A stretch of 64,000 nucleotides of DNA, from assembly GCA_964640125.1 (NCBI GenBank), contig CAZXGG010000009.1:6398-70397 (forward strand). The letters are read 5' to 3'. This document shows positions 2,104 to 18,596 of the stretch, in pieces; the stretch's first letter is position 1; each line of letters starts with the position of its first letter. This stretch comes from an uncultured Rikenellaceae bacterium (GTDB taxonomy: Bacteria; Bacteroidota; Bacteroidia; Bacteroidales; VadinHA17). Under the pieces are notes generated by a model that did no database searches, had not been told where the DNA came from, and saw only the letters and a list, made by a program, of their open reading frames with translations. The translations under genes and the position numbers were made by a program.

Positions 2104-2106
2104 AAT

Positions 2107-4590
2107 TCACACCTTAAACCCCACCACCAGGACATCATCGACCTGTGATTCATTCCCCATCCAGTCAACGAATGTTTTTTCAAGGATCTCTTTTTGGTGG
2201 TCAAACGGTTCCTGATGGATGGAAAAGAGCAGTTCCCTGAAGGGTTTGCTCATGAATTTCTTTTTCTCTTCTCCTCCAAATTGGTCTGCATAGCCATCCG
2301 AGTACATGTAGAAAACCTTTTCGGTTTTCAGGTCAAATTCGTGTTTGGAAAATATTTTTCCCTGCAAATCCTCATCTTCGATACCACCGATCGGCATTTT
2401 ATCTGCAAGGATGCGATGCATTTCTCCATCCTCTATATAAAGCAGGGGGTTCTTTGCCCCGGCATATTCCAGTATGTTTTTTCCCTTGTCGATCACACAC
2501 AATGCCATATCCATTCCGTCCCGGTTCTGATTTTCCTGCTGTTTCAGGGCTTTTGAAACTCCTTTATGGAGGTCAATCAGGATCTGATCTGCTGCTGTGA
2601 TCTTCCGGGCATCCACAATTTCATTCAACAGGTCATGGCCCATCATGCTGACAAATCCTCCGGGGACTCCATGGCCGGTACAATCAACGGCAGCAATGAC
2701 GATTTTTCCATTGACTTCATTAAACCAGTAAAAGTCTCCGCTGACGATATCCCGTGGCCGGTAAAAAATAAACAGGTTTGGAATTGCATTTTTTATCACC
2801 TCCATGCGTGGCAACATCGCATCCTGTATTCCTTTTGCATAATTGATGCTGTCGGTGATGTGTTTATTTTTGATCTCGATCTCAACTTTTTGTTCCTCGA
2901 TCTGGTTTTTCTGCTCTTCCAGGAGAATATTTTTCTGGTTCAGCAGTTCATTGGCTTTTTTCTTTGTCCGGTATCTGCTATAAAAAACCACCACCAGGAT
3001 AAGGACAAGCCCTGAGATGACGATAAATGAGTTTTTCTGATTTCGGCTCTTGATGAGGTTAAGTGTTTGTATTTCGTTCTCTTTCCGGAGCAAGGCATTT
3101 TCCTGTTCTTTTTTCTCCGTGTCGTACATGGTTTGCCACTGGGTAATTGCCTTCTGGTTCTCTTCCGTAAACACACTGTCCCTGTAAAAGGCTGATATCT
3201 TAAAGGATTCCAGGGCATTCCTGTAATCTCCCCTGGCAGCATAAAATTCCGACAATATCCGGTAAACGATTCGAAGCAGATCCTTGTCGTTTATCTCCTT
3301 TGCCATGTCGAGGCTTTGATTCAGGCAATTCAGTGCTTCAGTATAGTGCCCGTACTTCTGGTGAACGAATCCAATCGTTTTCATGGTATTTGCAATCCCC
3401 ATTGTATCCCCGATCTCCTGTTTCAACTCCAGTGCCTGCATATAATATTCAATTGCCCCCTGGTAATCATTCAGCCCTTTGTCATAGATATCCCCGATTT
3501 TTTTCATGGCGGAACTGATTCCCTGAAGATTGTTGAGTGACTGTTCAATGTTCAGGGCTGCCTGGTAAAACCCGATGGCATCGGGATAATTTTCGGTAAC
3601 TTCATGAATATAACCGATCTCGAGGTAACAGAACGCGACTCCTTCCTGGTCCTGGAGCCGGGTATAATTCCCCAGTGATAAACCGAAGTAATCTTTTGCC
3701 ATGTCGTAGTTGTGCATCGCTTTATAGACCGTTCCGATGTTGAACTGGGCCTGTGCAGTCCCGCGCAGATCAGCAATCTCCTCATATATTCTCAGGGCTT
3801 CCAGGTAGTTTTCCTGAGCTCCCCCGTAATCTGATTTCCGTTCAAAAATATTGCCAAGGGCATTGTAAGCTTTTGCGGTACCCTGCTTATCATTCACCTC
3901 TTCGGAAAGTTGGAGTGATTGTTTAAAATTTTCCTCAGCTCTCGCATAATCTCCCCTGTTGCTATAGATTTCTCCAATATTCAAAAGGGCATTGGCGATC
4001 CCTTCCTTGTTGTTGATCTCTTCATTCAACTGTAAGGACCGGTTGAAGTGATCCAGGGCTTCTGAGGATTTCCCCATATCGCTTAATACAACCCCTATGA
4101 TATTTAACGACGAGGCAATATTCTCCTTATCCCCCGACAGGCTGTCAATTTCAAATGATTGCCTGAAATAACCCAGTGCTCGTTCAAAATCATTCTGACT
4201 GCGGTAGATAATTCCGATGTTATACAAACAGGCTGAAATCCCTTCCTGGTAGTCAATCTCCCTTGCCAGGTCCAACCCTTCCTGATAGAATTCAAGCGCT
4301 TGCTGATCATCATACAGGTTTGACCAGGCTGATCCCTTCTCCTTAAGAGCCAGTACTTCCGACTGAGGATCATCCAGTTTCCTGGAAAGGGTTATAATTT
4401 GATCCGCATATTCGATATTTTGCTCATTATCATAAGGGTGGTTCTTAATCCATTCATACAGGATATCGATCTTCTCCTTATCGGGAACCACCTTCAGGGT
4501 ATCTTCCAATGATCTTTCCTGTCCCGTGGATGGAGAGATAAAAGCCAGATGAATAGCTACAACCAGAAAGTATAAAAGAAATCGCTTCAT
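2107..4590 (-). CDS. Sensor protein phosphatase: signal peptide, extracytoplasmic TPR array, one TM helix, cytoplasmic SpoIIE/PP2C domain
   Basis: 827-aa ORF. It has the signal-like segment MKRFLLYFLVVAIHLAFISPSTGQ and about 10 TPR repeats with the recurring NIGxxYxxxGxYxxAxxxFxxSL pattern. A TM helix (FIVISGLVLILVVVFYS) and a coiled coil follow. SpoIIE motifs are RPRDIVSGDFYWF, AAVDCTGHGVPGGFVSMMG and YSDGYADQFGG. Confidence 0.9.
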   Translation of the reverse strand: MKRFLLYFLVVAIHLAFISPSTGQERSLEDTLKVVPDKEKIDILYEWIKNHPYDNEQNIEYADQIITLSRKLDDPQSEVLALKEKGSAWSNLYDDQQALEFYQEGLDLAREIDYQEGISACLYNIGIIYRSQNDFERALGYFRQSFEIDSLSGDKENIASSLNIIGVVLSDMGKSSEALDHFNRSLQLNEEINNKEGIANALLNIGEIYSNRGDYARAEENFKQSLQLSEEVNDKQGTAKAYNALGNIFERKSDYGGAQENYLEALRIYEEIADLRGTAQAQFNIGTVYKAMHNYDMAKDYFGLSLGNYTRLQDQEGVAFCYLEIGYIHEVTENYPDAIGFYQAALNIEQSLNNLQGISSAMKKIGDIYDKGLNDYQGAIEYYMQALELKQEIGDTMGIANTMKTIGFVHQKYGHYTEALNCLNQSLDMAKEINDKDLLRIVYRILSEFYAARGDYRNALESFKISAFYRDSVFTEENQKAITQWQTMYDTEKKEQENALLRKENEIQTLNLIKSRNQKNSFIVISGLVLILVVVFYSRYRTKKKANELLNQKNILLEEQKNQIEEQKVEIEIKNKHITDSINYAKGIQDAMLPRMEVIKNAIPNLFIFYRPRDIVSGDFYWFNEVNGKIVIAAVDCTGHGVPGGFVSMMGHDLLNEIVDARKITAADQILIDLHKGVSKALKQQENQNRDGMDMALCVIDKGKNILEYAGAKNPLLYIEDGEMHRILADKMPIGGIEDEDLQGKIFSKHEFDLKTEKVFYMYSDGYADQFGGEEKKKFMSKPFRELLFSIHQEPFDHQKEILEKTFVDWMGNESQVDDVLVVGFKV

Positions 4591-4751
4591 TCGTTACCGT
4601 TACCGGGTATATACGATCAAAAATAGTAAACAAATCCCAATTATGTTTAAAAAAGTGCCCATTCGTTACAAATCACAATAAATAAAATTGTACATTAGAT
4701 TTCAAACAGGAGAGTAGCAAAATCACATAACACGCGGTATTTCACCCATCT
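4591..4751. promoter_or_regulatory. 161-bp divergent control region between the TPR-SpoIIE gene and the CHASE2-CHAT operon
   Basis: AT-rich gap between two divergently oriented start codons. It contains a tandem cgttac-cgttac, a third gttac, and two aaatcaca words. No clean TAnnTTTG box was found by eye. Confidence 0.4.
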
Positions 4752-5945
4752 ATGGTAAATTTTCAACTCATCCTTCGGAGTATATTTCGGACAATCCCAC
4801 TGAGGTTTATTGGTGAGGTGCTCCTTTTGGGATTAATCATCCTGTTTGTGGAATTTCGTATCACTGAGAAAAAAACCATCGACTGGCGGCAAATATACAG
4901 TGACCATAAGCGGGAAAAGACGATCGACCCGGACATTGTAATCGTTAAAATTGACGATTATGCCTTCCGCTCCATTGCGGGCGGAGAAGTAAGCCGTGAA
5001 TATATAGCCACGCTGGTGAATGAAATAAAAAGCTATTCACCCAGGGTGATCGGTCTGGATTTTCTGTTCACGGCACACTTTAGCGATAAGTATGACCAGA
5101 TACTATATGAAGTGAAGAAAATTGATCCGGAATATGCAGATCCTGACCAGAAGCTGATGCAGGCAATCCAGTCAGAGATACCGGTTGTACTGGGCGCAAA
5201 TCTCATCCTGAATGATAAAGAGAAAGTGCGTCTGATCCAACCCATTGACTCGTTTTTACAGGAGAATGTTACTGTCGGGGTTACCAAAGTCAACCTGGAT
5301 AAGGACGATGTTTGCAGGGAAGTATACCTGTATAAAAAGATAGCCGGCTCAGATGTACCTGCCTTCTCCACCCGGATCTGCCAGTCAGCAGGATCAGATA
5401 TTGCAGTGGAATATGACCCGGAGGTGATTCGTTACTTCACGCCATCCAAAACCTTTGCATCTTTCTCAAGCAAGGATATCCTGGATGGAAAGTTTCGTCA
5501 GGTTTCCGAAAACTGGTTCAGGGACAAGATCATCCTGGTGGGAGTTACCTATTCCGGCAGTAACGATTTTTTCAAAACACCATTGACCGGAATACTCAGA
5601 AACCAGGAGGAGCTGCCGGGTATCTTTATTCATGCGATGGTCATTAAGAATATTTTAAATCAGCAGTTTATCCCCGATCAAAAAAGGTTTTATAACCTCA
5701 TTGCTTTGTTCCTGACCATCATTATCCTGATAGAGGGAATAATCCTGAACAGGAAAACCATACCAACGCTTGCTTTTATGCTGACGGGGATACTTCATAT
5801 TCTGCTCTGTTTCCGGTTGTTCCTGAATAATGGGATGAATATACCTTTCCTGGTCCCCTTACTGATAATAGCCATCGGGTTGCTATGCCTGTTTTTCATC
5901 AGCAGGATCAGGAATGACTATACAAATGAACAAATAACATCATAA
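4752..5945 (+). CDS. CHASE2 domain membrane protein with no output domain
   Basis: 397 aa. It has an N-terminal TM segment (GEVLLLGLIILFV). CHASE2 hallmarks are DIVIVKIDDYAF...PRVIGLDFLF and ILVGVTYSGSNDFFKTPL...LPGIFIHAMVIKNIL. Three C-terminal TM helices follow, and the protein then ends. Confidence 0.8.
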   Translation: MVNFQLILRSIFRTIPLRFIGEVLLLGLIILFVEFRITEKKTIDWRQIYSDHKREKTIDPDIVIVKIDDYAFRSIAGGEVSREYIATLVNEIKSYSPRVIGLDFLFTAHFSDKYDQILYEVKKIDPEYADPDQKLMQAIQSEIPVVLGANLILNDKEKVRLIQPIDSFLQENVTVGVTKVNLDKDDVCREVYLYKKIAGSDVPAFSTRICQSAGSDIAVEYDPEVIRYFTPSKTFASFSSKDILDGKFRQVSENWFRDKIILVGVTYSGSNDFFKTPLTGILRNQEELPGIFIHAMVIKNILNQQFIPDQKRFYNLIALFLTIIILIEGIILNRKTIPTLAFMLTGILHILLCFRLFLNNGMNIPFLVPLLIIAIGLLCLFFISRIRNDYTNEQITS

Positions 5946-5965
5946 ATAACTTAAAACAAAACGAC

Positions 5966-6805
5966 ATGAGAAGAATTGGATTGTATTGTATGCTTTTACT
6001 GGTTTCTTTGGCCAGTATGGGACAGGGCAGCAAGGATTATGTAGCCATGCTGTTTTCATTGGATGGTGAAGGAGTGTACACCCGGGACGGGAAATCGGAG
6101 AACCTGATGGTTCCACAGAACTTCCTGAAAGGAGATAAGATCCTGCTTTCATCAGGAACAGCCACCCTGATGCTGTTTTCAGGGGATGAGGTGAACCTGA
6201 AAGCAAACGAAGAATATACCGTTTCCGGTTCAACAGGCACAGGCGCAGAATCGGAAAAAAATTCAACCTTTCAATCGGTCTCCGAATTGATTGATGAGGA
6301 TCACGAGCGGATATCCCAGCGGAATGCTGCCTATAAGGTCAGGGGTGCTTTCTCTGCAGTCAAAGCGTTTCCTTCACTCTCCGGTTTGATTGACGGCAGC
6401 TATGCCGAAGTTGTTCTGAATGTTGATGTGAATGCCGGCTTCCAGCTTTCCCTGGAAGTGTATGACCAGGCAACCGATGAAGTGGTCTGGAAATTGGATC
6501 GGATCACGGCCAAGGAAGTGTCTCTGAAGGATGTGGATTTTGTGCCCGGTGAAAGCTACTACTGGAGCCTGAGAGCAAGAGATGTTCTTGATATCGGGAT
6601 CATTAATGTATGGAATGATGAAAAGAAATCTGAACTAAAAAAGTTCGCATACAACGAAAAGATCGATTACCTGACCGCCTATAATTACTATAAGGAACAG
6701 GAACTGATGTATGATGCCCGGCATGTATTGAAACTGGCGATCCGGAAATATCCTGAAAGCGACCTGTTTGAATACCTGCTGGAAAACCTGGAGATACCCG
6801 ATTAA
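5966..6805 (+). CDS. Secreted FecR-like / DUF928-like protein
   Basis: 279 aa with signal peptide MRRIGLYCMLLLVSLASMGQG. There is a FecR-type segment, LKGDKILLSSGTATLMLFSGDEVNLKANEEYTV. The C-terminal half (FVPGESYYWSLRA, GIINVWNDE, YNYYKEQELMYDARHVLKLAIRKYPESDLFEYLL) resembles the DUF928 consensus as I recall it. This needs HMM confirmation. Confidence 0.55.
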   Translation: MRRIGLYCMLLLVSLASMGQGSKDYVAMLFSLDGEGVYTRDGKSENLMVPQNFLKGDKILLSSGTATLMLFSGDEVNLKANEEYTVSGSTGTGAESEKNSTFQSVSELIDEDHERISQRNAAYKVRGAFSAVKAFPSLSGLIDGSYAEVVLNVDVNAGFQLSLEVYDQATDEVVWKLDRITAKEVSLKDVDFVPGESYYWSLRARDVLDIGIINVWNDEKKSELKKFAYNEKIDYLTAYNYYKEQELMYDARHVLKLAIRKYPESDLFEYLLENLEIPD

Positions 6806-6848
6806 AACCCGGCCGGGAACTGAAAGTGAACCATTCAACAGACAAAAC

Positions 6849-7835
6849 ATGAAATGGAGATTCATTTTTATTCCAGCTCTGATACTGGTTTGTATCCTGT
6901 TACCCATGTGTGAGGAGGGGGATGTTATCGATCCGGAAAAGGTGGATGTATGGACCAACTATACACCCCAGAATGGCATGATTGACAATGAGATCTGGTC
7001 GATTACCGAGGATCTGTATGGAAACATCTGGGTAGGGACCGGTACCGGACTTTATCGGTTTGATGGCAATAAATGGGATCAGGTCGGTCAGGAAGCCTAT
7101 GTAGAGGGATATCCGATATATGCTGTTGCAATGGATGGAGACGGGATCCTGTGGGTTGGATCGTACTATGGACTGGACGTCCTGGTCCAGGGTAACTGGC
7201 TCTGGATCGACAGCCTGTTCGGATACCCGTTTACTGCACGAAGCCTTTACAGGGATAAATTCGGGGATATGTGGATCGGTACTTATGGGAGTGAATTTAC
7301 TCCCGGTGGATTGTTCGCGTTCGATGGACAATATTTCTACAAGTACACGGATCCGTTTGAACAGCCCGGATTTAACAACATCTATTGCATTACCGGTGAC
7401 CAGGGGAGTAATATCTGGGTAGGTACCGATGCCGGCGCTGTAAAGATGACACAATCCGGTTATGAAGTACTCGATTCCACCAACGACCTCGTATTCGATG
7501 ATGTAACCGCCATTCTCCTGGATGGCTGGCAGGATACCTGGTTCGGCACATTCAGCGGAAACCAGGTTGGAAGGTTGCACGGCAACCAGATGGAATTTCT
7601 GAGCCTCTTTCACAATTATTCTATTTCCGGCGTGATAACCATGACGGAAGATCATGACCACAACATCTGGTTCGGAACCGGTGCAGGGTTAGTTAAATAC
7701 AACGGGACCACTATGGATGCCAATGTAAAAGCCGAACTGAGTAACGGACTGATCTCCTGCTCCCTTACCGACCAGAAAGGGAAAGTATGGTTCGGGACAT
7801 TGGAAAAGGGATTGTTTGTCTATACACCGAAATGA
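6849..7835 (+). CDS. Stand-alone two-component-regulator-propeller (Reg_prop) repeat lipoprotein
   Basis: The start is moved from 6768 to ATG 6849, giving MKWRFIFIPALILVCILLPMC followed by EEGD. Seven Reg_prop-like blades are visible: IWVGTGTGLYRFDG, LWVGSYYGLDVL, MWIGTYG, IWVGTDAGAVKM, TWFGTFSG, IWFGTGAGLVKYNG and VWFGTLEKGLFVY. There is no Y_Y_Y, kinase or HTH part. Confidence 0.8.
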   Translation: MKWRFIFIPALILVCILLPMCEEGDVIDPEKVDVWTNYTPQNGMIDNEIWSITEDLYGNIWVGTGTGLYRFDGNKWDQVGQEAYVEGYPIYAVAMDGDGILWVGSYYGLDVLVQGNWLWIDSLFGYPFTARSLYRDKFGDMWIGTYGSEFTPGGLFAFDGQYFYKYTDPFEQPGFNNIYCITGDQGSNIWVGTDAGAVKMTQSGYEVLDSTNDLVFDDVTAILLDGWQDTWFGTFSGNQVGRLHGNQMEFLSLFHNYSISGVITMTEDHDHNIWFGTGAGLVKYNGTTMDANVKAELSNGLISCSLTDQKGKVWFGTLEKGLFVYTPK

Positions 7836-7851
7836 CAATAACCCTGTGAAA

Positions 7852-8916
7852 ATGATTATAGCTCTTGCGATGAGAAGAAATATCCTTTTATTTATAATTG
7901 CCGGTTTAACTGCCCATTGCTGGAGTCAAACCGGTGGGAATACCGATATACTGACCGAACGGGTCGTAGATCGTCCGTTAACCCTTCACGCCGGGCAGCT
8001 GCAGATCAATCCCGGGTACCAGCTGTCCATCGGTAGCAGGAAATTCGATGCCGATGGAGATAAAATCAACCTGGCTAAGGAGGGGACTGCCATGGTTCAG
8101 CACCTCTATAATCTTGAAATCAAGTACGGTATCCTCGAATTTCTTGAGGTATCTGCTGCCCTGAACTACAGTAGCCTGGGAGTAAGGGAGAAACAGGTCT
8201 GGTATTTTCATGGGGCGGAAACCATGTATACTACGCAACTTACTGAATGTAAGGGATTATCCGATCTGTTCGTTGGACTGGCTCTGCGGCTGCCTTTTGA
8301 TATTGATCACTTCGGCTGGAGAGTCTCTGCCGGAGCTTCTCTCCCTGTCGCAAACTATAAACCGGAAAAACCAACACACTCATCCACAACGGTTGTGGAT
8401 TCGTTAGGTGTTTTCCAGCAGGTCCGGTTCCATTACAACGATAAAGCCGGTAACGGAACCATGATCTACCATTTTGGCACCGCTGCACAGTTTTTTACAG
8501 ACAATATGGCCATTACGGGATGGGCTGATTATTCCCTCTGCTTTAGTGAAGCTGAAACCCACTACTGGGAGAGCCGGTTGTATGAAGATGAATTTTCCTA
8601 CCAATCAGTTCCCTACAAGACAAAACCCGGCAATACCCTTTCCTATGTCCTTACCTTTGACTATCAGGCAATTGACTGGTTTGATGTTTTTGGCAGATTC
8701 AGCGGGATGATGTACCACGGTGGCTGGGATGAGGAAGAGGGAGTACGGATCGGGCATCCAGAAAAAAACATAATGGCTGTTGGATTCGGTTATGAAATAC
8801 AGGTTGCAAGGCACCTGCGCCTGTTTCAATCCATGGATATACCCATTTTAGGTAAGAACGAGCTGGCTCCGCTGGTAATCTATACGGGAGCAAGCTTTAA
8901 CTTCCTTACACGATAA
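7852..8916 (+). CDS. Putative outer-membrane beta-barrel (MetA-pathway/transporter-like), paralog 1
   Basis: The start is ATG 7852 (or 7870), with signal peptide ...LLFIIAGLTAHCWSQ. The sequence has an amphipathic beta-strand character and ends ...YTGASFNFLTR. It shares motifs with the next ORF: RPLTLHAG/EPATLRKG, FDADGDK/FDENGEK, LEIKYGI/LELGYGI and PILGKN/PVLGKN. Confidence 0.6.
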   Translation: MIIALAMRRNILLFIIAGLTAHCWSQTGGNTDILTERVVDRPLTLHAGQLQINPGYQLSIGSRKFDADGDKINLAKEGTAMVQHLYNLEIKYGILEFLEVSAALNYSSLGVREKQVWYFHGAETMYTTQLTECKGLSDLFVGLALRLPFDIDHFGWRVSAGASLPVANYKPEKPTHSSTTVVDSLGVFQQVRFHYNDKAGNGTMIYHFGTAAQFFTDNMAITGWADYSLCFSEAETHYWESRLYEDEFSYQSVPYKTKPGNTLSYVLTFDYQAIDWFDVFGRFSGMMYHGGWDEEEGVRIGHPEKNIMAVGFGYEIQVARHLRLFQSMDIPILGKNELAPLVIYTGASFNFLTR

Positions 8917-8933
8917 AACTCAGAGCCCTGGTT

Positions 8934-9959
8934 ATGGAAACAATCAATAAATACAATATATCGGGCACGATTAAAAACATTTCTGGTTCACTGGCATTGC
9001 TTCTTCTACCCTCCCTGGCAAGCGGACAGACCGAGCAACAGGTGCTGCCGTCTGAGCTGAAAGAACAGACGGTCATTACCGAACCGGCAACCCTGAGGAA
9101 AGGTTTTTTTCGCGCTTCTTTTTTCGGATCGTATACATTAATTGATCAAGCATTCGATGAAAATGGGGAGAAAGGATATATTTTAAACACCAACGTTTGG
9201 ACACGAAGCTGGTTGTATCAACTGGAACTGGGTTACGGTATTTCAGACCGTCTGCAGGTTGTGTTGCGGCCGGTATTTGTCAATAAACAGGTTTTCGCTA
9301 CCACTGAAAACCGGTTCGGATCTGAGATAGAAACATGGTCTGCAAAACAGAGTGCTGTTGGTTTTGGCGATCTGGCTGTTGGCATTGATTACCAGATCCT
9401 TACGGAAACCGAAATCCGCCCCTCCCTGGTGGCAAAAACAACATTTACCCTGCCAACCGGACAAAAAAATCCAACCGAGATTAAAAGCTGGACAGACTAT
9501 AAGCTTCCAACAGGAGCCGGCCAATTTGTCATTGCACTTGACCTGAAACTTAGAAAGATCATCTATCCCTATTCATTCACCCTCTATGCAGGGTATGCTT
9601 ACTTTTTTGAAGGAGAGAAAATATTTCCATACTATTTCGAACCGGGTGACGAAGATTCTTTTAAGCAAACGTTTCGATTTAAAAGCGGTAACCGCGTTAA
9701 TGTTAGTGGCAGTTTTAATGTTCACCTGAACGACTGGATTGCACTTGAGAACCAGGTGTCCTTCTTTCATTGGATGGGTAATAAGATCTATGCAGAACCT
9801 GTCTATGAAGGAAACAAAGCCTGGTTCCTCATCTACATGCCTGTCCTTAATTTCCAGATCAGAAGGTTCAGGCTCTTTGAAAAAGTTTCCGTACCCGTTC
9901 TGGGTAAAAATATTGGTGCAGATCCGGATTATATCCTGGGTTTGTTGTATACATTCTAA
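8934..9959 (+). CDS. Putative outer-membrane beta-barrel, paralog 2
   Basis: 341 aa with signal peptide ...SLALLLLPSLASGQ. The C-terminus, ...YILGLLYTF, ends in an aromatic residue, as is typical of OM barrels. It shares motifs with the preceding ORF. Confidence 0.6.
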   Translation: METINKYNISGTIKNISGSLALLLLPSLASGQTEQQVLPSELKEQTVITEPATLRKGFFRASFFGSYTLIDQAFDENGEKGYILNTNVWTRSWLYQLELGYGISDRLQVVLRPVFVNKQVFATTENRFGSEIETWSAKQSAVGFGDLAVGIDYQILTETEIRPSLVAKTTFTLPTGQKNPTEIKSWTDYKLPTGAGQFVIALDLKLRKIIYPYSFTLYAGYAYFFEGEKIFPYYFEPGDEDSFKQTFRFKSGNRVNVSGSFNVHLNDWIALENQVSFFHWMGNKIYAEPVYEGNKAWFLIYMPVLNFQIRRFRLFEKVSVPVLGKNIGADPDYILGLLYTF

Positions 9960-9982
9960 TTCATTTTTGCAAGATCCGGAAC

Positions 9983-12811
9983 ATGAGAAAACCAAGCATC
10001 ATCCAAAATCGTTATCGCACCAGATGGTACCTGATAGGAATTATTGGTATTCTTCTCTCTTCCTGTACCACTCCCTCCATCATTGCTACCCGTGAACAGC
10101 AGCAGGGTGACTACTATAACAACCTGAATCAGTTCAATGAGGCAATCATACATTATGAAAAATACCTGGAGGCAAGCAAGCAGCTTGGGATCTACCGGAA
10201 TCTTGATATGGAAGCTGATGTGTGCCGAAAAGTAGCCCAGGCATACAGCACACAGGGTAATTTCTCCAGGGCAATTGAATATGTGGAAGAGTCAGTGAAA
10301 CTGGATACCATCCAGAACAATCCGCTGGAAATAATTGAAGATTACAGGATGCTGGGAAAAATCTACCTCTACAGCGGCAATTTTAACGAAGGGATCGGAT
10401 TTCTGGGAAAAGCCCTCCTGCTGAATGAGGGAATGGAAAGCAGCCTGAAAAGCATCAACCGGCTTTCTGTGGCAGATACCTACCTGTCACTTGGGCAGGC
10501 ATGTAATGCGCTCGGACGATTCCGGGAAACGGAACAACACACGGAGAACGCTCTTTCCATCTACAACGATCTGAACGACTGGCAGGGAATAATGGAAACA
10601 AATCTCATACTCGGGAATGCGATGATGCAACGGGGAGAAACCAAAAAAGCAAGAACCCTGTACCAGCAGTCGCTCGAGCTGGCTCAAATCCACGACCGGA
10701 ATGCAGCCCGGCAACTGCAGGCTATCGGAGAATCCTTTGAGGCAGAAGGAGAATATGAACAAGCCCTGAATGCAAAGCTGGAAGCACTTCAGAATGCTGA
10801 AGAGTCAAACATCATCCCCCAGATCATATGGAGTAACATTGGCGTGGGTGATGCATACTACCAGATCGGAAACCTTGAAAAAGCAAACGATTATTTCCTG
10901 CTGTCTGCACAGATACATGAGAAAGAAATAGTCCAGGCAGAAGCACTCGGAGCATCACTGGATATGAGGCTGGGCGATGTACAGCAAGCACAACAATACT
11001 TCGCCGGAGCCAACGCCCTGGTCGCAGCAGGACTGGCCAGCCTCCGCCTGGGCGAATCCCGTTTCCGGATGGGTGAGATCAATAGTAGCCTGGCAAGCTA
11101 TCAGGAAGCAATAGACTACTTCACACGCTCAGAAACCCGGGAGGGAACCGCTAAAGCCCATTTGAGGATAGGACACATACAACTTGAAGCGAAAAACCTT
11201 GCCGAGGCAAAAAGAAATCTCTTCATGGCAGCTAACCTGACAGAGCAGGAAGAAACGAAATGGCAGATCCTCTACCAGCAGGGACGGTTATTCGAAACAG
11301 AAGAAAAAATCGATTCTGCCATTAATGCATACGAGGAAGCAATCCGGATCATCGAAAACATACGGGGTAAATTTACCATCGATGAATTTAAAAGTATTTA
11401 CATCGATGATAAGATTGATGTGTACGACAGGCTGATCAACCTGCTCCTCAACCTCAACCTGAAAACGGAAGCATTTGCCTGTGCACAAAGAGCCAGGTCC
11501 CGCGCATTCCTTGACCTGATCGGAAACAAAAAAATCGATGTAAAAACAAGTGCAGATCCGGAACTGGTGGAACGGGAACAGGACCTGAGGTTCGAGATCC
11601 AGCAACTTACCAGGGCAATCATGAGGAATGACCTGAAAACAACCGGTGCGGATGCCTTACGGGGAGAAGCTAAATTTGAACTGGAAAGTGAGCTCCAACA
11701 AGCCAGGGATGAGTATTCCGATATCCTGAGCCAGCTGAAGTTAAAAAACCGGGAGTACCAATCCATGGTCGTGGTTGAACCGTCCGGCCTGGAATCCGTT
11801 CAAGCCCTGCTTGATGATAAGACAGCACTGGTGGAATACTGGTTGAGCGAGCAAAATTTAATCATCTGGGTGATCACCCGGAATGAACTTCATACCATAA
11901 CCACCGATGTTCCTGACAGTCGAATTCAACAATCGGTTGTGATGTGCCGCCGGTTCATCCAGCCCGGTTCTGGTGATGCATACAAAGACAGGTTGAAAAC
12001 ACTCTACCAGATCCTCTTCTCCCCGATCGAAGAATTGGTAAACCAGTATGATAACCTGGGGATCATCCCGCACAGGGAACTGCATATCCTTCCATTCCAG
12101 GCATTGATCGATAGCGAAGACCACTACCTGGTAGAGCGGTTCAATATTTTCTATGTTCCTTCAATCAGCGTCTATGAACAATGTGTCCGGAAGAAAGGAG
12201 CATACAATAATCAGTTTCTTGCAATGGCGCTTGGAGACATAGCTCTCGGGGACTTTTCGGGACTGCCGGGAACAATAAAAGAGGTGGAGGATATCTCCGT
12301 GCATTTTCCCGGGGGAACCATCCGGATTGAACAGCAGACCACTGAATCGTATTTAAAAAACAATGCATCCGGTTTTCAATACCTGCACCTTGCTACACAT
12401 GGCTTGTTGAATCCCGTGCAACCCATGTATTCTTACCTGCTCTTCGCCCCAACAGAAGCAGACGACGGCCAGCTGGCTGTTCATGAAGTATTCGGTTTGG
12501 ATCTGAATGCACAACTGGTAACCCTCAGTGCGTGCCAGACCGGGCTTGGAGAGATCAGCAGAGGAGATGAATTAATTGGTATGAGCAGGGCTTTCCTCTA
12601 TGCCGGAACACCCGCCGTTGTTGTTAGTCTCTGGAGCGTTGCCGACGAACCTACTGCCCTGCTGATGACCCGGTTCTACCAGTTCATGAAACAAAACAAC
12701 CTGCAGCATGCCCTTACTCTTGCCCAGCGTGATGTCCTAAAACAGTACAACAACCCCTTCTTCTGGGCACCCTTCCAGCTGATCGGATATGGAGGAGATG
12801 AAAAGTTATAA
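9983..12811 (+). CDS. TPR-CHAT (caspase-fold cysteine protease) lipoprotein
   Basis: 942 aa. The lipoprotein signal is MRKPSIIQNRYRTRWYLIGIIGILLSSC. Residues ~40-450 form a TPR array. The C-terminal CHAT domain carries a His/Cys dyad: YLHLATHG (His codon 12398-12400) and LVTLSACQTGLGE (Cys codon 12533-12535). These are followed by GMSRAFLYAGTPAVVVSLWSVAD. Confidence 0.85.
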   Translation: MRKPSIIQNRYRTRWYLIGIIGILLSSCTTPSIIATREQQQGDYYNNLNQFNEAIIHYEKYLEASKQLGIYRNLDMEADVCRKVAQAYSTQGNFSRAIEYVEESVKLDTIQNNPLEIIEDYRMLGKIYLYSGNFNEGIGFLGKALLLNEGMESSLKSINRLSVADTYLSLGQACNALGRFRETEQHTENALSIYNDLNDWQGIMETNLILGNAMMQRGETKKARTLYQQSLELAQIHDRNAARQLQAIGESFEAEGEYEQALNAKLEALQNAEESNIIPQIIWSNIGVGDAYYQIGNLEKANDYFLLSAQIHEKEIVQAEALGASLDMRLGDVQQAQQYFAGANALVAAGLASLRLGESRFRMGEINSSLASYQEAIDYFTRSETREGTAKAHLRIGHIQLEAKNLAEAKRNLFMAANLTEQEETKWQILYQQGRLFETEEKIDSAINAYEEAIRIIENIRGKFTIDEFKSIYIDDKIDVYDRLINLLLNLNLKTEAFACAQRARSRAFLDLIGNKKIDVKTSADPELVEREQDLRFEIQQLTRAIMRNDLKTTGADALRGEAKFELESELQQARDEYSDILSQLKLKNREYQSMVVVEPSGLESVQALLDDKTALVEYWLSEQNLIIWVITRNELHTITTDVPDSRIQQSVVMCRRFIQPGSGDAYKDRLKTLYQILFSPIEELVNQYDNLGIIPHRELHILPFQALIDSEDHYLVERFNIFYVPSISVYEQCVRKKGAYNNQFLAMALGDIALGDFSGLPGTIKEVEDISVHFPGGTIRIEQQTTESYLKNNASGFQYLHLATHGLLNPVQPMYSYLLFAPTEADDGQLAVHEVFGLDLNAQLVTLSACQTGLGEISRGDELIGMSRAFLYAGTPAVVVSLWSVADEPTALLMTRFYQFMKQNNLQHALTLAQRDVLKQYNNPFFWAPFQLIGYGGDEKL

Positions 12812-12901
12812 GTTAAAAGTTATTCGTTATAAGTTGATAAGAGGGAAGGGAGTGATGCACCATAGGCGTGCCTACGGCAAATGATGAATGATGAGTGCCT
12901 G

Positions 12902-12939
12902 CCACGTGAAATGCGACGAAGGAGCATATTTCACTGTGG
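12902..12939. other. Stem-loop flanked by gatgaatgatga direct repeats
   Basis: ccac-gtgaaat (12902-12912) pairs with atttcac-t-gtgg (12928-12939). That is 11 bp with a 1-nt bulge and a 15-nt loop. The word gatgaatgatga occurs on both sides. Confidence 0.5.
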
Positions 12940-13091
12940 ATGAATGATGATTGATGAGTTAGCATGGGGCTTGGGGCATGGAGCATCCGCCTTCGTTAAA
13001 ACTTCGGCGGACAAAGTAGGGCATGGGGAGGAGTACAGAGTTAAAAGAGAGGAGAAGACTTTGAGACGAAGGGACTGAAGGACAAAGAGGT

Positions 13092-13123
13092 TGAGACGGT
13101 GAGACGATGAGACTGTGAGACGA
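13092..13123. repeat. Four tandem copies of the octamer TGAGACNN
   Basis: The copies are tgagacgg, tgagacga, tgagactg and tgagacga, starting at 13092, 13100, 13108 and 13116. One further copy lies at 13062. Confidence 0.85.
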
Positions 13124-13155
13124 AAAGAATGCGTGCTGGGTGCTCGGTTCTCGGT

Positions 13156-13192
13156 CCTGCCCGCCCGACTGAACGTCGTTCGGGCGGGCGGG
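13156..13192. other. Strong GC stem-loop
   Basis: gcccgcccga (13159-13168) is perfectly complementary to tcgggcgggc (13180-13189). The stem can be extended by G-U and two C-G pairs to 13156/13192. The loop, ctgaacgtcgt, is 11 nt. Confidence 0.8.
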
Positions 13193-13271
13193 CTGGTTAC
13201 TGGGTCTCCTTCGCTACTAAAAATGTAGCTTCGGGAGTATGGTTATGCCACCTTTGGTACATTGTAAAGAA

Positions 13272-13349
13272 TACCCCAGAGGGGTATAATAATCAATAGC
13301 CCCGGGTGAGGGAACGGTAGTGACCGTAACCCGAGGCTAGTGTATACCC
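13272..13349. ncRNA. Candidate structured RNA element: nested long hairpin with a competing upstream helix
   Basis: The outer helix pairs gggtata (13282-13288) with tataccc (13343-13349). The middle helix pairs agccccgggt (13298-13307) with acccgaggct (13329-13338), with 1 mismatch. The apical helix pairs acggt with accgt around an agtg loop. The same ggggta segment can instead pair with tacccc (13272-13277). Strand and expression are unknown. Confidence 0.35.
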
Positions 13350-13455
13350 AAAAAATAATATGGTCCAACTGCATGGTAATTCTATAGGAAATTATTCCAT
13401 GGACCGAAATTCTCCAGCCGTTAAGGCAAAGGTTAATATCAATGGACTCAATAAC

Positions 13456-13478
13456 TTAATAACCACTAACCCAATAAC
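13456..13478. repeat. Second exact copy of the 23-mer ttaataaccactaacccaataac
   Basis: Identical to 2081-2103. Both copies are preceded by ggact, and this copy has a 7-nt caataac insertion between them. Confidence 0.9.
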
Positions 13479-13581
13479 TTTTCTTTAGAAGTATTTTTTA
13501 TGAAAATTTAAGTTCCATTCTGAAATGTGAAAAATGAATATAACAACCACTTTCCATTTGCATATTAAAATAGTTTATTTA

Positions 13582-13605
13582 ACTTTGTATTTCAAAGTAC
13601 TTTTA
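13582..13605 (+). promoter_or_regulatory. 24-bp conserved promoter/operator site, copy 1 (upstream of the membrane-protein/wHTH unit)
   Basis: actttgtatttcaaagtactttta is identical to 14568-14591. It contains the inverted repeat ACTTTG-n5-CAAAGT and the perfect palindrome AAAGTACTTT. It overlaps taactttg (13580-13587), which fits the Bacteroidota -7 motif TAnnTTTG. It lies 12 nt before ATG 13617. Confidence 0.6.
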
Positions 13606-13616
13606 AAACATGAAAG

Positions 13617-14249: not shown

Positions 14250-14252
14250 CGC

Positions 14253-14552: not shown

Positions 14553-14567
14553 TTTTTTTATCTGTTC

Positions 14568-14591
14568 ACTTTGTATTTCAAAGTACTTTTA
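14568..14591 (+). promoter_or_regulatory. 24-bp conserved promoter/operator site, copy 2 (upstream of creD-like gene)
   Basis: Exact repeat of 13582-13605. It lies 16 nt after the regulator stop codon and 19 nt before ATG 14611. Confidence 0.6.
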
Positions 14592-14610
14592 TATATTAAA
14601 TTATACCACC

Positions 14611-18594: not shown

Positions 18595-18596
18595 AC

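What the first reader, a model, noticed from the sequence alone, without database searches (positions are those of the whole stretch)
4752..12811. Six-gene, fully exported operon: CHASE2, FecR/DUF928-like, beta-propeller, twin OM barrels and a TPR-CHAT caspase-fold protease
Seen in the sequence:
- Six same-strand ORFs are separated by only 20, 43, 16, 17 and 23 nt, so they are very probably one transcript.
- Every product carries an export or membrane signal. The set is a CHASE2 protein with TM helices, a signal-peptide FecR-like protein, a lipobox beta-propeller, two signal-peptide barrels ending in aromatic residues, and a lipobox TPR-CHAT protein.
- The CHAT protein has an intact His/Cys dyad (HLATHG and LSACQTG).

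Established knowledge:
- CHAT is a caspase/separase-fold cysteine protease.
- The prokaryotic CHAT proteases characterised so far, to my knowledge, act in the cytoplasm. Examples are the type III-E TPR-CHAT protease and gasdermin-activating proteases.
- CHASE2 is an extracytoplasmic sensor module that is normally fused to a cytoplasmic output domain.

Inference:
- This is an envelope-located sensing and proteolysis module with no cytoplasmic output of its own.
- From memory, CHAT + CHASE2 + DUF928 neighbourhoods, often with a two-partner-secretion-type OM transporter, recur in cyanobacteria without an assigned function.
- This locus looks like a Bacteroidota counterpart in which the OM component is a pair of MetA/transporter-type barrels.
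- I know of no experimental description of such a system.
Basis: partly seen in the sequence, partly recalled or inferred. Interest (0 to 1): 0.8.

Follow-up and report, generated by a model that had tools for sequence, protein, structure and literature searches.

The report
Exported CHAT protease outer-membrane cassette
This uncultured Rikenellaceae genome joins a widely conserved but unstudied four-gene cassette (a surface propeller lipoprotein, two FapF-like outer-membrane barrels and a periplasm-facing caspase-like TPR-CHAT protease) to a separate CHASE2 sensor module, which points to caspase-fold proteolysis working in the cell envelope rather than the cytoplasm.

Summary
The six same-strand ORFs, their spacing, and the CHASE2, Reg_prop and TPR-CHAT assignments are real, and the His806/Cys851 dyad is intact. 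FecR is not supported for gene 2. That gene belongs to a small family of about 270-aa proteins with weak DUF928 affinity.

The two barrels are paralogues of the FapF/COG4313 (Phenol_MetA_deg) 12-strand type.

The "six-gene operon" is a lineage-specific fusion of two modules.
- **Module B** is propeller, barrel A, barrel B and TPR-CHAT. In 80 metagenome loci this order is near-universal (58/59, 48/48, 44/48). CHASE2 and gene 2 lie upstream in only 3 of 32 loci, all close relatives.
- **Module A** is CHASE2, the DUF928-like protein and a divergently transcribed periplasmic-TPR/cytoplasmic PP2C (SpoIIE) phosphatase. It occurs without the cassette in another Bacteroidales genome.

The modules are still linked by recurring associations:
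- a P2-like gene sits beside three exported TPR-CHAT genes in one locus;
- CHASE2 plus a P2-like gene occurs in Bernardetia;
- caspase/CHAT–CHASE2 fusion proteins sit beside signal-peptide TPR-CHATs on two cyanobacterial plasmids.

The propeller carries a surface-export-type lipoprotein signal, and the CHAT protein does not.

Best reading, by inference: an outer-membrane proteolytic relay, wired here to an inner-membrane sensor and a phosphatase. I found no experimental description.

The parts
2107..4590 (-). TPR-SpoIIE: signal peptide (…STG|Q), about 500 aa of periplasmic TPR array, one TM helix (res 517-541) and a cytoplasmic PP2C/SpoIIE phosphatase. Transcribed divergently from CHASE2. Candidate cytoplasmic output of Module A.
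   Evidence: Pfam TPR_12 1.9e-61 and SpoIIE 3.6e-17. Sequence and hydropathy. Conserved next to P2-family genes in L008, L012-L015 and L017-L020.
4752..5945 (+). P1: stand-alone CHASE2 protein. Topology is TM, periplasmic CHASE2, then 3 TM helices, with no output domain.
   Evidence: Pfam CHASE2 1.8e-39. TM segments 11-38 and 312-388. Orthologues are only 9 clusters at >=56% identity; the next relatives are CHASE2-cyclases and CHASE2-HisKA proteins.
5966..6805 (+). P2: periplasmic protein with a signal peptide, two beta-sandwich domains joined by a long helix, and C-terminal helical hairpins. It belongs to a small DUF928-like family and is not FecR.
   Evidence: No Pfam or NCBIfam hit. Only 58 representatives among 1.84 billion proteins. 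7 of 46 relatives hit DUF928 weakly and none hit FecR. One relative is named DUF928 by NCBI. AF2 pLDDT 89.3. Only weak Ig/FnIII-like fold matches.
6849..7835 (+). P3: lipoprotein consisting of a single Reg_prop beta-propeller. Lipobox Cys21 (6909-6911) is followed by EEGD, a surface-export (LES)-like signal.
   Evidence: Reg_prop 3.8e-23. PDB 3v9f 1e-24 and 4a2l 3e-21, both periplasmic sensor domains of Bacteroides hybrid two-component systems. 50/50 homologues have the Cys and 39/50 have >=2 D/E at +2..+6. LES definition from PMC5080379.
7852..8916 (+). P4: outer-membrane barrel A, a divergent paralogue of P5. SPI signal peptide. The likely true start is 7870.
   Evidence: No Pfam hit. hhalign against the P5 family gives 99.6%, E 4.8e-24, over the full length. 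Lies directly upstream of barrel B in 58/59 loci.
8934..9959 (+). P5: outer-membrane barrel B of the FapF/COG4313 (Phenol_MetA_deg) type. It has two PTG motifs (res 174-176 and 192-194; 9453-9515) and a conserved N-terminal segment (res 39-60) that is a candidate plug.
   Evidence: Profile against FapF 5.5e-11. AF2 pLDDT 87.8. Foldseek FapF 7e-17 and COG4313 5e-12. PTG motifs; the FapF paper describes the same two motifs.
9983..12811 (+). P6: TPR-CHAT lipoprotein. Lipobox Cys28 (10064-10066) is followed by TTPSI with no acidic residues, which points to the periplasmic face of the OM. About 600 aa of TPR. CHAT domain res 669-935 with His806 (12398-12400) and Cys851 (12533-12535).
   Evidence: Pfam CHAT 1.3e-64. 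Dyad alignment and invariance. 63/63 homologues have C-x-T-P-S and none has D/E at +2..+6.
12812..13616 (.). 805-nt non-coding spacer that ends the array. It holds a GC-rich hairpin at 13156-13196 and a TAnnTTTG motif (the Bacteroidetes -7 promoter consensus, from my own knowledge) at 13580-13587 that belongs to the next operon (210-aa gene, HTH_34, CreD).
   Evidence: The sequence around the motif is also conserved in L008. No Rfam hit.

Best explanation
The locus is a lineage-specific fusion of two envelope modules.

MODULE B (6849-12811)
- It is a conserved four-gene outer-membrane cassette made of:
  - a surface-exposed Reg_prop propeller lipoprotein;
  - two paralogous FapF-like 12-strand barrels;
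  - a TPR-CHAT cysteine protease tethered to the periplasmic face of the outer membrane.
- I propose it works as an outer-membrane proteolytic relay.
  - The propeller binds an external ligand. It is homologous to the ligand-binding sensor propellers of Bacteroides hybrid two-component systems.
  - The barrels pass this state across the membrane, probably through their conserved N-terminal plug-like segments.
  - This switches on the TPR-regulated CHAT protease, which makes a site-specific cut in a periplasmic protein.

MODULE A (2107-6805)
- It comprises stand-alone CHASE2, the DUF928-like periplasmic protein P2, and a periplasmic-TPR/cytoplasmic PP2C phosphatase.
- It is an inner-membrane sensing unit.
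- In this clade it is placed to receive the proteolytic signal, with P2 or the periplasmic TPR/CHASE2 domains as substrate or ligand. It would then convert the signal into a cytoplasmic dephosphorylation output.

SHOWN
- Domain identities.
- Conserved order of the cassette.
- Separability of the two modules.
- Export signals of contrasting type on the propeller and the protease.
- An intact catalytic dyad.
- Recurrent pairwise associations among CHASE2, P2-like, TPR-CHAT and TPR-SpoIIE genes.

INFERRED
- Physical complex formation.
- Ligand binding by the propeller.
- The substrate of the protease.
- The direction of signal flow.
For: ANATOMY
- Domain assignments.

CASSETTE CONSERVATION
- Barrel A lies upstream of barrel B in 58/59 loci.
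- The propeller lies upstream in 48/48 loci.
- TPR-CHAT lies downstream in 44/48 loci.
- The sample is 80 metagenome loci plus genomes of Bacteroidales and Cyclobacteriaceae.

TOPOLOGY
- Propeller: lipobox Cys followed by acidic residues in 39/50 homologues.
- CHAT: Cys followed by xTPS and no acidic residue in 63/63 homologues.
- The LES rule comes from PMC5080379.

ACTIVE PROTEASE
- The dyad is invariant.

SIGNALLING FLAVOUR
- The propeller's best PDB relatives are HTCS sensor domains.
- No conserved cargo gene sits in the cassette. The upstream gene varies between a PKD lipoprotein, T9SS cargo and unknowns.
- TPR-CHAT relatives with known function (Csx29, separase) are partner-regulated, site-specific proteases. 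This is established knowledge, and the Craspase papers are listed.

LINKS BETWEEN THE MODULES
- The six-gene array is kept down to 65% CHASE2 identity (L012/L013; L022-24).
- L017: TPR-(SpoIIE) homologue | P2-like | three signal-peptide TPR-CHATs.
- L095: the cassette is followed by a TPR-SpoIIE gene. L038: the barrels are followed by one.
- Bernardetia: stand-alone CHASE2 plus a P2-like protein (A3 HMM 3.1e-8).
- Cyanobacterial caspase/CHAT-TM-CHASE2 fusion proteins in Nostoc and Tolypothrix; in Tolypothrix exported TPR-CHATs lie beside the fusion.
- Aureibacter: sigma factor, hypothetical protein, then CHAT.

CO-TRANSCRIPTION
- No TAnnTTTG promoter motif occurs on the + strand between 4400 and 6849. 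The 43-nt gap before the propeller gene leaves little room for a promoter.
Against: - There is no direct evidence for a complex, a ligand or a substrate.
- The cassette usually occurs with neither CHASE2/P2 nor an adjacent TPR-SpoIIE gene (29/32 loci). Its general function therefore cannot depend on Module A.
- TPR-SpoIIE paralogues are probably common in Bacteroidota (my own knowledge, not counted here), so some adjacencies may be chance.
- The closest structural relative of the barrels, FapF, is a polypeptide exporter, and COG4313 has been proposed as an uptake channel for hydrophobic compounds. Neither is known as a signal transducer.
- In the cyanobacterial fusion proteins the caspase/CHAT-like domain is cytoplasmic, which is a different topology from the one here.
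- Three loci (L036, L037, L038) have the barrels but no CHAT gene directly downstream.
- LES-based surface exposure is a sequence-rule prediction. It was established in Capnocytophaga, Bacteroides and Flavobacterium, not in this organism.
Confidence: 0.4

Rival explanations
1. Fap-like secretion and processing machine. The two FapF-type barrels export an unfolded polypeptide, or help display the propeller lipoprotein itself. The periplasmic CHAT protease plays the role that the C39 protease FapD plays in Pseudomonas: it processes the cargo or unplugs the channel. CHASE2/P2 is merely a neighbouring regulatory module.
For: - FapF is the best sequence and fold match.
- The two PTG motifs described for FapF are conserved in P5.
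- FapD is a periplasmic Cys protease that is essential for secretion (PMC5557850).
- The cassette is sometimes preceded by PKD lipoproteins or T9SS cargo genes.
Against: - No conserved cargo gene sits in or next to the cassette.
- I saw no gene matching the Fap subunits (FapA/B/C/E) in the cassette, though I did not search for them specifically.
- The barrels have only about 25 mature residues before the barrel, which leaves no room for FapF's periplasmic coiled coil.
- The protease belongs to a different clan.
- The associated genes are signalling proteins (CHASE2, PP2C, sigma factor).
Confidence: 0.25
2. One six-gene, self-contained envelope sensing-and-proteolysis operon with no cytoplasmic output. 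It would be the Bacteroidota counterpart of the cyanobacterial CHAT + CHASE2 + DUF928 systems, with the barrels replacing a TPS transporter.
For: - Tight spacing and no internal promoter motif.
- The array is conserved within the clade.
- P2 has weak DUF928 affinity.
- CHASE2-CHAT clustering occurs on cyanobacterial plasmids.
Against: - CHASE2/P2 are absent upstream of the cassette in 29/32 loci.
- L008 keeps CHASE2/P2 at the same chromosomal site without the cassette.
- The conserved divergent TPR-SpoIIE gene supplies a plausible cytoplasmic output.
- FecR is not supported.
- No DUF928/P2-like gene and no barrel was found in the cyanobacterial loci examined.
Confidence: 0.12
3. Nutrient or hydrophobic-compound uptake unit. 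A surface binding lipoprotein works with COG4313-type channels, analogous in logic to SusD/SusC. TPR-CHAT would be a periplasmic processing or quality-control peptidase with no signalling role.
For: - The COG4313 channel (4rl8) is the second-best fold match, and family members carry PF13557.
- The surface-lipoprotein-plus-barrel arrangement is typical of Bacteroidota uptake systems.
- Glycoside hydrolase or esterase genes lie nearby in L006 and L007.
Against: - No catabolic or inner-membrane transporter genes are conserved with the cassette.
- Flanking genes differ in every lineage.
- A 940-aa TPR-regulated caspase-fold protease is an unusual choice for bulk degradation.
- The cassette keeps a strict 1:1:1:1 stoichiometry of genes.
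Confidence: 0.12

Closest known systems
Pseudomonas Fap amyloid secretion system (FapF outer-membrane channel plus FapD periplasmic cysteine protease)
   Same: - P5, and through paralogy P4, are homologues of the FapF 12-strand barrel. Profile E 5.5e-11; Foldseek E 7e-17; the two PTG motifs are conserved.
- A periplasmic cysteine protease is encoded in the same operon as the channel.
   Different: - The protease is clan CD TPR-CHAT, not C39.
- There are two paralogous barrels instead of one homotrimeric FapF.
- There is no room for the FapF periplasmic coiled coil.
- I saw no FapA/B/C/E-like genes, though I did not search for them specifically.
- An extra surface propeller lipoprotein is present.
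- The host is Bacteroidota.
Trans-envelope cell-surface signalling (FecA-FecR-FecI; SusC-like/anti-sigma/ECF-sigma pairs of Bacteroides PULs)
   Same: Works-like analogy only. An outer-membrane barrel with a surface ligand-binding partner relays occupancy to a periplasmic component. Regulated proteolysis then carries the signal to a cytoplasmic regulator.
   Different: - The barrels are 12-strand FapF-like, not 22-strand TonB-dependent transducers.
- No FecR domain was detected.
- No sigma/anti-sigma pair is present in this locus.
- The protease is a CHAT lipoprotein.
- The output candidate is a PP2C phosphatase.
Type III-E CRISPR TPR-CHAT (Csx29, 'Craspase') and other cytoplasmic CHAT proteases (SAVED-CHAT, gasdermin-activating)
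   Same: - Same two-part architecture: an N-terminal TPR array followed by a C-terminal CHAT domain with a His/Cys dyad.
- In known members the TPR part mediates partner-dependent activation of a site-specific cut.
   Different: - P6 scores 55.9 bits against the Csx29 model, whose cut-off is 300.
- P6 has a lipoprotein signal and is predicted to be extracytoplasmic.
- Pfam scans of the neighbouring genes showed no Cas or cyclic-nucleotide sensor domain, and none of the seven proteins matched a PADLOC defence-system model beyond generic TPR hits.
Cyanobacterial CHASE2-CHAT clusters (Nostoc sp. UHCC 0926 pn1; Tolypothrix sp. PCC 7712 plasmid), uncharacterised
   Same: - A CHASE2 sensor is genetically coupled to caspase-fold proteases.
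- Signal-peptide-bearing TPR-CHAT proteins of about 940 aa lie in the Tolypothrix cluster.
   Different: - In the cyanobacteria, CHASE2 is fused to a cytoplasmic caspase/CHAT-like domain.
- Those loci have no FapF-like barrels, no Reg_prop propeller and no P2-like protein.
- DUF1822 and a sigma-r4-like protein are present there instead.
COG4313 / Phenol_MetA_deg outer-membrane channels (Pput2725, PDB 4rl8)
   Same: Same barrel superfamily. Many P5 homologues carry PF13557. Foldseek E 5e-12.
   Different: COG4313 channels are, as far as I know, single genes associated with hydrocarbon catabolism. Here there are twin paralogues locked to a protease and a propeller.
T9SS attachment complex (PorU clan-CD peptidase, PorZ propellers, PorV and PorQ barrels)
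   Same: Compositional analogy: a clan-CD cysteine peptidase, a beta-propeller protein and two outer-membrane barrels in Bacteroidota.
   Different: - The PorZ model scores 46 bits against a cut-off of 260.
- No T9SS C-terminal domains are present.
- P6 is CHAT, not a C25-type peptidase.
- The barrels are FapF-like, not PorV/FadL-like.
- P6 is predicted to face the periplasm.

Membership tests
CHAT (PF12770, clan CD caspase-fold peptidases) | HMM match above the gathering score across the whole domain | tested here: met
   218.9 bits against a cut-off of 24, profile positions 2-288 of 289.
CHAT (PF12770, clan CD caspase-fold peptidases) | Catalytic His and Cys present and aligned with known CHAT proteases | tested here: met
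   His806 and Cys851 align with LATHG/LAAC of 8rot_B and with TPR-CHAT 7zoq. Both are invariant in 9 homologues.
Type III-E Csx29 TPR-CHAT | NCBIfam NF041237 above its cut-off, plus genomic association with Cas7-11/gRAMP | tested here: not met
   55.9 bits against a cut-off of 300, CHAT part only. The neighbours are barrels and a propeller. A lipoprotein signal is present.
CHASE2 (PF05226) | HMM above the gathering score, with TM-domain-3TM topology | tested here: met
   136.3 bits against a cut-off of 26.3. TM helices at 11-38 and three between 312 and 388.
CHASE2 sensor proteins (canonical architecture) | A cytoplasmic output domain fused after the last TM helix | tested here: not met
   The protein ends 9 residues after the last TM helix. 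Non-orthologous relatives carry Guanylate_cyc or HisKA domains.
FecR (PF04773) | HMM or fold match of P2 to the FecR periplasmic domain | tested here: not met
   No hit for P2. No hit in 46 family members. No FecR structure among the top 50 Foldseek PDB matches.
DUF928 (PF06051) | HMM match | tested here: inconclusive
   P2 itself gives no hit. 7 of 46 relatives hit weakly, best E 4.6e-4. One relative, P0133, is named a DUF928 domain-containing protein by NCBI.
FapF / COG4313 (Phenol_MetA_deg, PF13557) barrels | Sequence-profile and fold match to the 12-strand plugged barrel | tested here: met
   - P5 alone is sub-threshold: 18 bits against a cut-off of 22.
- The P5 family profile hits FapF at 5.5e-11.
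- The AF2 model matches FapF at E 7e-17 and 4rl8 at 5e-12.
- P4 is linked to P5 by hhalign at 99.6%.
FapF proper (NF058560) | [quoted passage not shown] | tested here: met
   P5 has PTG at residues 174 and 192, both nearly invariant in the family. P4 has none.
FapF proper (NF058560) | N-terminal periplasmic coiled coil; equivalog score; fapA-E neighbours | tested here: not met
   21.7 bits against a cut-off of 700. Only about 25 mature residues precede strand 1. I saw no Fap subunit genes in the cassette.
Reg_prop propeller (PF07494), sensor domain of hybrid two-component systems | Repeats above the gathering score and homology to solved HTCS sensor domains | tested here: met
   79 bits with 6 repeats. 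3v9f 1e-24 and 4a2l 3e-21. P3 lacks the Y_Y_Y, kinase and receiver domains, so it shares the domain but is not an HTCS.
T9SS PorZ (NF052228) | Equivalog score and a T9SS C-terminal domain | tested here: not met
   46 bits against a cut-off of 260. No Por_Secre_tail hit.
Bacteroidota surface lipoproteins (LES-bearing) | Lipobox Cys followed by a polar or basic residue and >=2 D/E at about +2..+6 | tested here: met
   P3 has C-EEGD. 39/50 homologues have >=2 acidic residues. P6 homologues have none in 63/63. The rule comes from PMC5080379. Actual surface exposure cannot be tested with these tools.
Known anti-phage defence systems (PADLOC) | Match of any of the seven proteins to a defence-system model | tested here: not met
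   Only generic TPR models matched.

The most novel reading that the evidence does not exclude
This would be the first envelope-resident separase/Csx29-type protease switch. A surface propeller receptor and a pair of FapF-like barrels would couple an extracellular cue to site-specific CHAT proteolysis on the periplasmic face of the outer membrane. The cleavage product would be read by a CHASE2/DUF928-like/TPR-PP2C unit in the inner membrane. Together this would be a trans-envelope proteolytic signalling pathway that uses neither TonB-dependent transducers nor sigma/anti-sigma pairs. It would be related in logic to the uncharacterised exported-CHAT/CHASE2 clusters of cyanobacteria.
Probability: 0.2. 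Interest if true: 0.85.

Novelty: new variant of a known kind. Interest (0 to 1): 0.62.

Why it matters
- To my knowledge, every prokaryotic CHAT protease characterised so far acts in the cytoplasm, in defence or cell-death pathways. The literature searches turned up no exported one.
- This locus, its more than 80 relatives and the cyanobacterial clusters point to a large, unstudied population of exported TPR-CHAT proteases that carry conserved sorting signals and dedicated outer-membrane partners.
- The cassette also extends the FapF-type barrel family into Bacteroidota, in a strict pairing with a protease. That could show how such 12-strand channels are gated.
- The recurring network of CHASE2, DUF928-like, TPR-CHAT, TPR-PP2C and WD40 genes gives a testable context for two domains whose signals or functions are largely unknown: CHASE2 and DUF928.
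- The study gives concrete handles for experiments: Cys851, the lipobox and LES residues, the barrel N-terminal segments and the P2 linker.

Tried and rejected
- **FecR identity of P2.** There was no HMM hit in P2 or in 46 relatives, and no fold match.
- **Anti-phage defence system.** PADLOC gave only generic TPR hits.
- **Craspase-like or T9SS attachment-complex membership.** Scores were far below the cut-offs, and no Cas genes or T9SS C-terminal domains were present.
- **Mobile-element insertion of the cassette.**
  - I saw no integrase, transposase or flanking direct repeats.
  - The rest of the window is ordinary chromosome, with TamB, RND efflux, MacB, CLC and RelA/SpoT genes.
  - Whether the cassette was inserted, or was lost from L008, cannot be decided.
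- **ncRNA or riboswitch in the 805-nt spacer or elsewhere in 1-20000.** Rfam gave nothing.
- **Sigma-70-type promoter and terminator scan.** The counts were not clearly above the shuffled expectation (promoters 12 against 16 ± 4; terminators 15 against 8.5 ± 3.2), so they were not used.
- **P2-family members next to the cassette in distant loci.** An HMM of alignment A3 found none outside the window's clade. It also found none in the cyanobacterial loci.
- **P2 as the equivalent of the PKD lipoprotein** that precedes the cassette in other lineages. P2 has no PKD hit, and it belongs with CHASE2 by synteny.
- **Literature on exported CHAT, CHASE2+CHAT or DUF928.** Five searches found no experimental work. 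Only one paper mentions DUF928 at all.
- **Sequence search of the P4 family against the PDB.** No hit.

Full report
**1. The observation**

- The window comes from an uncultured Rikenellaceae (Bacteroidales) genome. Its closest genome match is the MAG contig CAYMFM010000014, at 97% amino-acid identity for the CHAT protein.
- Six + strand ORFs lie at 4752-5945 (P1), 5966-6805 (P2), 6849-7835 (P3), 7852-8916 (P4), 8934-9959 (P5) and 9983-12811 (P6). The gaps are 20, 43, 16, 17 and 23 nt.
- Pfam confirms three assignments:
  - CHASE2 in P1 (1.8e-39);
  - six Reg_prop repeats in P3 (3.8e-23);
  - a TPR array plus a full-length CHAT domain in P6 (1.3e-64).
- P2 and P4 have no significant Pfam or NCBIfam hit. 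P5 has only sub-threshold hits to Phenol_MetA_deg, FapF and CglE.
- The CHAT dyad is His806 (12398-12400) and Cys851 (12533-12535).
  - It aligns with LATHG/LAAC of the solved CHAT protein 8rot_B and with TPR-CHAT 7zoq.
  - It is invariant in nine homologues, down to 38% identity.

**2. The individual proteins**

*P1*
- P1 has one N-terminal TM helix, the CHASE2 domain and three C-terminal TM helices. It stops nine residues after the last helix.
- Its orthologues form only nine 90%-identity clusters at >=56% identity. The next relatives are CHASE2-cyclases and a CHASE2-HisKA protein.

*P2*
- P2 has an SPI-type signal peptide (…SMG|QGS).
- A profile search of 1.84 billion representative proteins found only 58 relatives, mostly about 270 aa long.
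- Seven of 46 relatives hit DUF928 weakly and none hits FecR. NCBI names one relative a DUF928 domain-containing protein.
- The AF2 model has pLDDT 89.3. It shows two beta-sandwiches joined by a long helix, followed by C-terminal helical hairpins. It has only weak Ig/FnIII-like matches in the PDB.

*P3*
- P3 is a single propeller. Its best solved relatives are the periplasmic ligand-binding domains of Bacteroides hybrid two-component sensors: 3v9f at 1e-24 and 4a2l at 3e-21.

*P5 and P4*
- The P5 family comprises 98 clusters, many carrying PF13557.
- Its profile hits FapF at 5.5e-11.
- Its AF2 model (pLDDT 87.8) matches FapF (E 7e-17, TM 0.64-0.80) and then the COG4313 channel 4rl8.
- P5 keeps the two PTG motifs that the FapF paper describes at the base of loop beta5-beta6.
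- The P4 family is a full-length paralogue of the P5 family (hhalign 99.6%, E 4.8e-24).

**3. Sorting signals, checked by comparison**

- All 50 propeller homologues with an intact N-terminus have a lipobox-like Cys. In 39 of them it is followed by at least two acidic residues at +2..+6, for example C-EEGD, C-EEDPD and C-EKTDYD.
- All 63 CHAT homologues have a Cys followed by x-T-P-S-[IVM], with no acidic residue at all in that stretch.
- In Bacteroidota, a polar or basic residue followed by two or more acidic residues just after the lipidated Cys is the lipoprotein export signal that sends lipoproteins to the cell surface (PMC5080379).
- The propeller is therefore predicted to be surface-exposed. 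The protease is predicted to stay on the periplasmic face of the outer membrane.
- P2, P4, P5 and the TPR-SpoIIE protein all have signal peptides that end just before Gln, which fits the Bacteroidetes Q-rule (PMC5837995, abstract).

**4. The six genes are two modules**

- Relatives of the cassette at 45-52% CHAT identity (L004-L007) keep propeller, barrel A, barrel B and CHAT. L007 lacks a clear propeller. Upstream they have a PKD lipoprotein or T9SS cargo genes, not CHASE2/P2.
- The same four-gene order occurs in Cyclobacteriaceae MAGs and on a 439-kb metagenome contig.
- A scan of metagenome contigs with the barrel B profile returned 80 loci. The counts are:
  - barrel A directly upstream in 58/59;
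  - the propeller upstream in 48/48;
  - TPR-CHAT downstream in 44/48;
  - CHASE2 and P2 upstream in only 3 of 32 loci with enough flank, all close relatives of the window.
- Conversely, locus L008 (Bacteroidales MAG CP070687) has the following genes:
  - TPR-SpoIIE on the minus strand (69% identity to the window);
  - CHASE2 (56%);
  - P2 (74%);
  - then, directly, the 210-aa gene (59%), an HTH_34 gene and a CreD gene, which in the window lie after the CHAT gene;
  - no cassette.
- The full six-gene array, together with the divergent TPR-SpoIIE gene, is kept in L001, L012/L013 and L022-L024, down to 65% CHASE2 identity.
- In L012 a MutS2 gene lies beyond TPR-SpoIIE. In L004 MutS2 lies directly beside the PKD gene and the cassette. 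Module A therefore occupies the place of the PKD gene.
- I cannot tell insertion of the cassette from its loss. I saw no integrase, transposase or flanking direct repeats.

**5. Module A has a plausible cytoplasmic output**

- The divergent gene at 2107-4590 encodes:
  - a signal peptide;
  - about 500 residues of TPR;
  - one TM helix (517-541);
  - a cytoplasmic SpoIIE/PP2C domain.
- A homologous TPR-SpoIIE gene sits beside P2-family genes in every P2-family locus whose upstream flank could be read.
  - These are the window's clade (L008, L012-L015) and the distant Bacteroidales loci L018, L019 and L020.
  - The distant loci have no CHASE2 and no CHAT, and a WD40 protein of about 1130 aa lies next to the phosphatase gene.
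  - In L017 the homologue is cut by the contig end, so only its TPR part is seen.
- A stand-alone CHASE2 gene followed by a P2-family gene also occurs on a plasmid of the cultured Cytophagales bacterium Bernardetia sp. (A3 HMM 3.1e-8). No TPR-SpoIIE gene is annotated beside that pair. L016 is too short to tell.

**6. The modules are nevertheless linked**

- In L017 (Salinivirgaceae), a TPR-(SpoIIE) homologue and a P2-like gene are followed by three tandem TPR-CHAT genes. These have SPI signal peptides and intact dyads. No barrels or propeller are present.
- L095 has the cassette followed by an unknown gene and a TPR-SpoIIE gene on the same strand. L038 has the barrels followed by a convergent TPR-SpoIIE gene.
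- Two cyanobacterial plasmids carry a single ORF that fuses a cytoplasmic caspase/CHAT-like domain, a TM helix, CHASE2 and two further TM helices.
  - In Nostoc sp. UHCC 0926 the scores are PF12770 6.4e-10 and PF05226 3.5e-63.
  - In Tolypothrix sp. PCC 7712 the scores are 4.1e-5 and 2.7e-23.
  - In Tolypothrix the fusion lies beside several CHAT proteins with signal-peptide-like N-termini, including a 938-aa TPR-CHAT of the same architecture as P6.
- In Aureibacter (Cytophagales), a CHAT protein follows a sigma factor gene and a small hypothetical gene.
- PMC5587647 mentions a WD40/CHASE2/DUF928 cluster in Nostoc punctiforme.
- Together these results give a network of pairwise associations among CHASE2, DUF928-like, TPR-CHAT, TPR-PP2C and WD40 proteins. 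It does not support the idea of one fixed six-gene unit.

**7. Transcription**

- The TAnnTTTG motif is the Bacteroidetes -7 promoter consensus (my own knowledge).
  - It occurs 37 nt before the 210-aa gene, at 13580.
  - It does not occur upstream of P1 or P3 on the + strand within 4400-6849.
- The array ends in an 805-nt non-coding spacer that contains a GC-rich hairpin.
- Co-transcription of the six genes in this clade is therefore plausible but not shown.
- The generic sigma-70 and terminator scan was uninformative.

**8. How it most likely works (inference)**

- CHAT proteases of known function with TPR or helical regulatory arms (Csx29, separase) are partner-gated, site-specific enzymes. 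This is established knowledge.
- The propeller belongs to a ligand-sensing family. The cassette carries no conserved cargo gene. Its recurrent neighbours are signalling proteins.
- I therefore favour an outer-membrane proteolytic relay (confidence 0.4), with these steps:
  - a surface propeller acts as the receptor;
  - twin FapF-like barrels pass the signal across the membrane, perhaps through their conserved N-terminal plug-like segments (P5 residues 39-60, with T46, T53, K56 and G57 invariant);
  - the TPR-CHAT protease acts as the periplasmic effector;
  - in this clade, CHASE2, P2 and TPR-PP2C receive the signal and form the cytoplasmic output.
- The main rival (0.25) is a Fap-like export or processing machine, in which CHAT plays the part of FapD (PMC5557850).

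**9. Novelty and verdict**

- All the domains are known. The following are not described in any paper I could find:
  - the strictly conserved combination of propeller, two FapF-like barrels and TPR-CHAT;
  - its predicted split topology across the outer membrane;
  - its fusion to a CHASE2/DUF928-like/PP2C module.
- It fails the membership tests for the Fap system, Craspase, the T9SS attachment complex and known defence systems.
- I rate it a new variant of known kinds: protease-associated FapF-type channels and extracytoplasmic CHAT/CHASE2 clusters. There is roughly a 20% chance that it represents a genuinely new trans-envelope proteolytic signalling route.
- Interest: 0.62.

Noticed in passing
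window 12812-13616: An unusually long (805 nt) non-coding spacer follows the CHAT gene. It holds a GC-rich 20-nt inverted repeat at 13156-13196, degenerate GAGACG-rich direct repeats at 13048-13139 and AATGATGA repeats at 12880-12959. There is no Rfam match. The corresponding spacer in L008 is only 230 nt.
   Followed up: partly
window 13580-13587; L008 about 11030-11040: A TAnnTTTG motif (TAACTTTG), the Bacteroidetes -7 promoter consensus, lies 37 nt upstream of the 210-aa gene. The surrounding sequence is also conserved in L008. It marks the 210-aa/HTH_34/CreD genes as a separate operon.
   Followed up: partly
L001 8919-9974; L006 9009-9992: The barrel B ORF is split into two pieces in two MAG loci. 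This could be a frameshift, an assembly error or a pseudogene.
   Followed up: no
L015 6147-6338: After CHASE2 and P2, only the first 63 codons of the propeller gene remain (67% identity). An unrelated 143-aa minus-strand ORF with no Pfam hit follows. The related contig L014 carries an IS200-type Y1 transposase gene nearby. The cassette may be disrupted, or the contig may be chimeric.
   Followed up: partly
L017 3402-11262: Three tandem paralogous TPR-CHAT genes (934, 951 and at least 660 aa) with near-identical SPI signal peptides lie directly after a P2-like gene in a Salinivirgaceae MAG.
   Followed up: partly
L018 2127-5516; L019 3189-6593; L020 2170-5574: A WD40 protein of about 1130 aa is conserved next to the TPR-SpoIIE/P2-like pair in three distant Bacteroidales loci. 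This echoes the WD40/CHASE2/DUF928 cluster reported for Nostoc punctiforme (PMC5587647).
   Followed up: no
L103 7630-10017; L105 4160-6619: Cyanobacterial plasmid ORFs fuse a cytoplasmic caspase/CHAT-like domain to CHASE2. Each is preceded by a DUF1822 protein. In Nostoc a protein with a weak sigma-70 region 4 hit also lies upstream; in Tolypothrix the corresponding upstream gene has no Pfam hit.
   Followed up: partly
L102 5690-9957 (Aureibacter tunicatorum pAT1): A sigma factor gene, a 237-aa hypothetical gene and a CHAT protein gene lie in a row. The CHAT N-terminus shows no obvious signal peptide.
   Followed up: no
window 7852-7870: The P4 start is probably the second ATG (7870, MRRNILLF…). 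Homologues start at the equivalent Met. The gap between the propeller and barrel A genes would then be 34 nt rather than 16.
   Followed up: partly
window 41796-46030: Two paralogous CLC chloride-channel/CBS genes lie close together on the minus strand. The rest of the window (TamB, an RND efflux operon, MacB/FtsX, RelA/SpoT, M1 and M28 peptidases) looks like ordinary chromosome.
   Followed up: no
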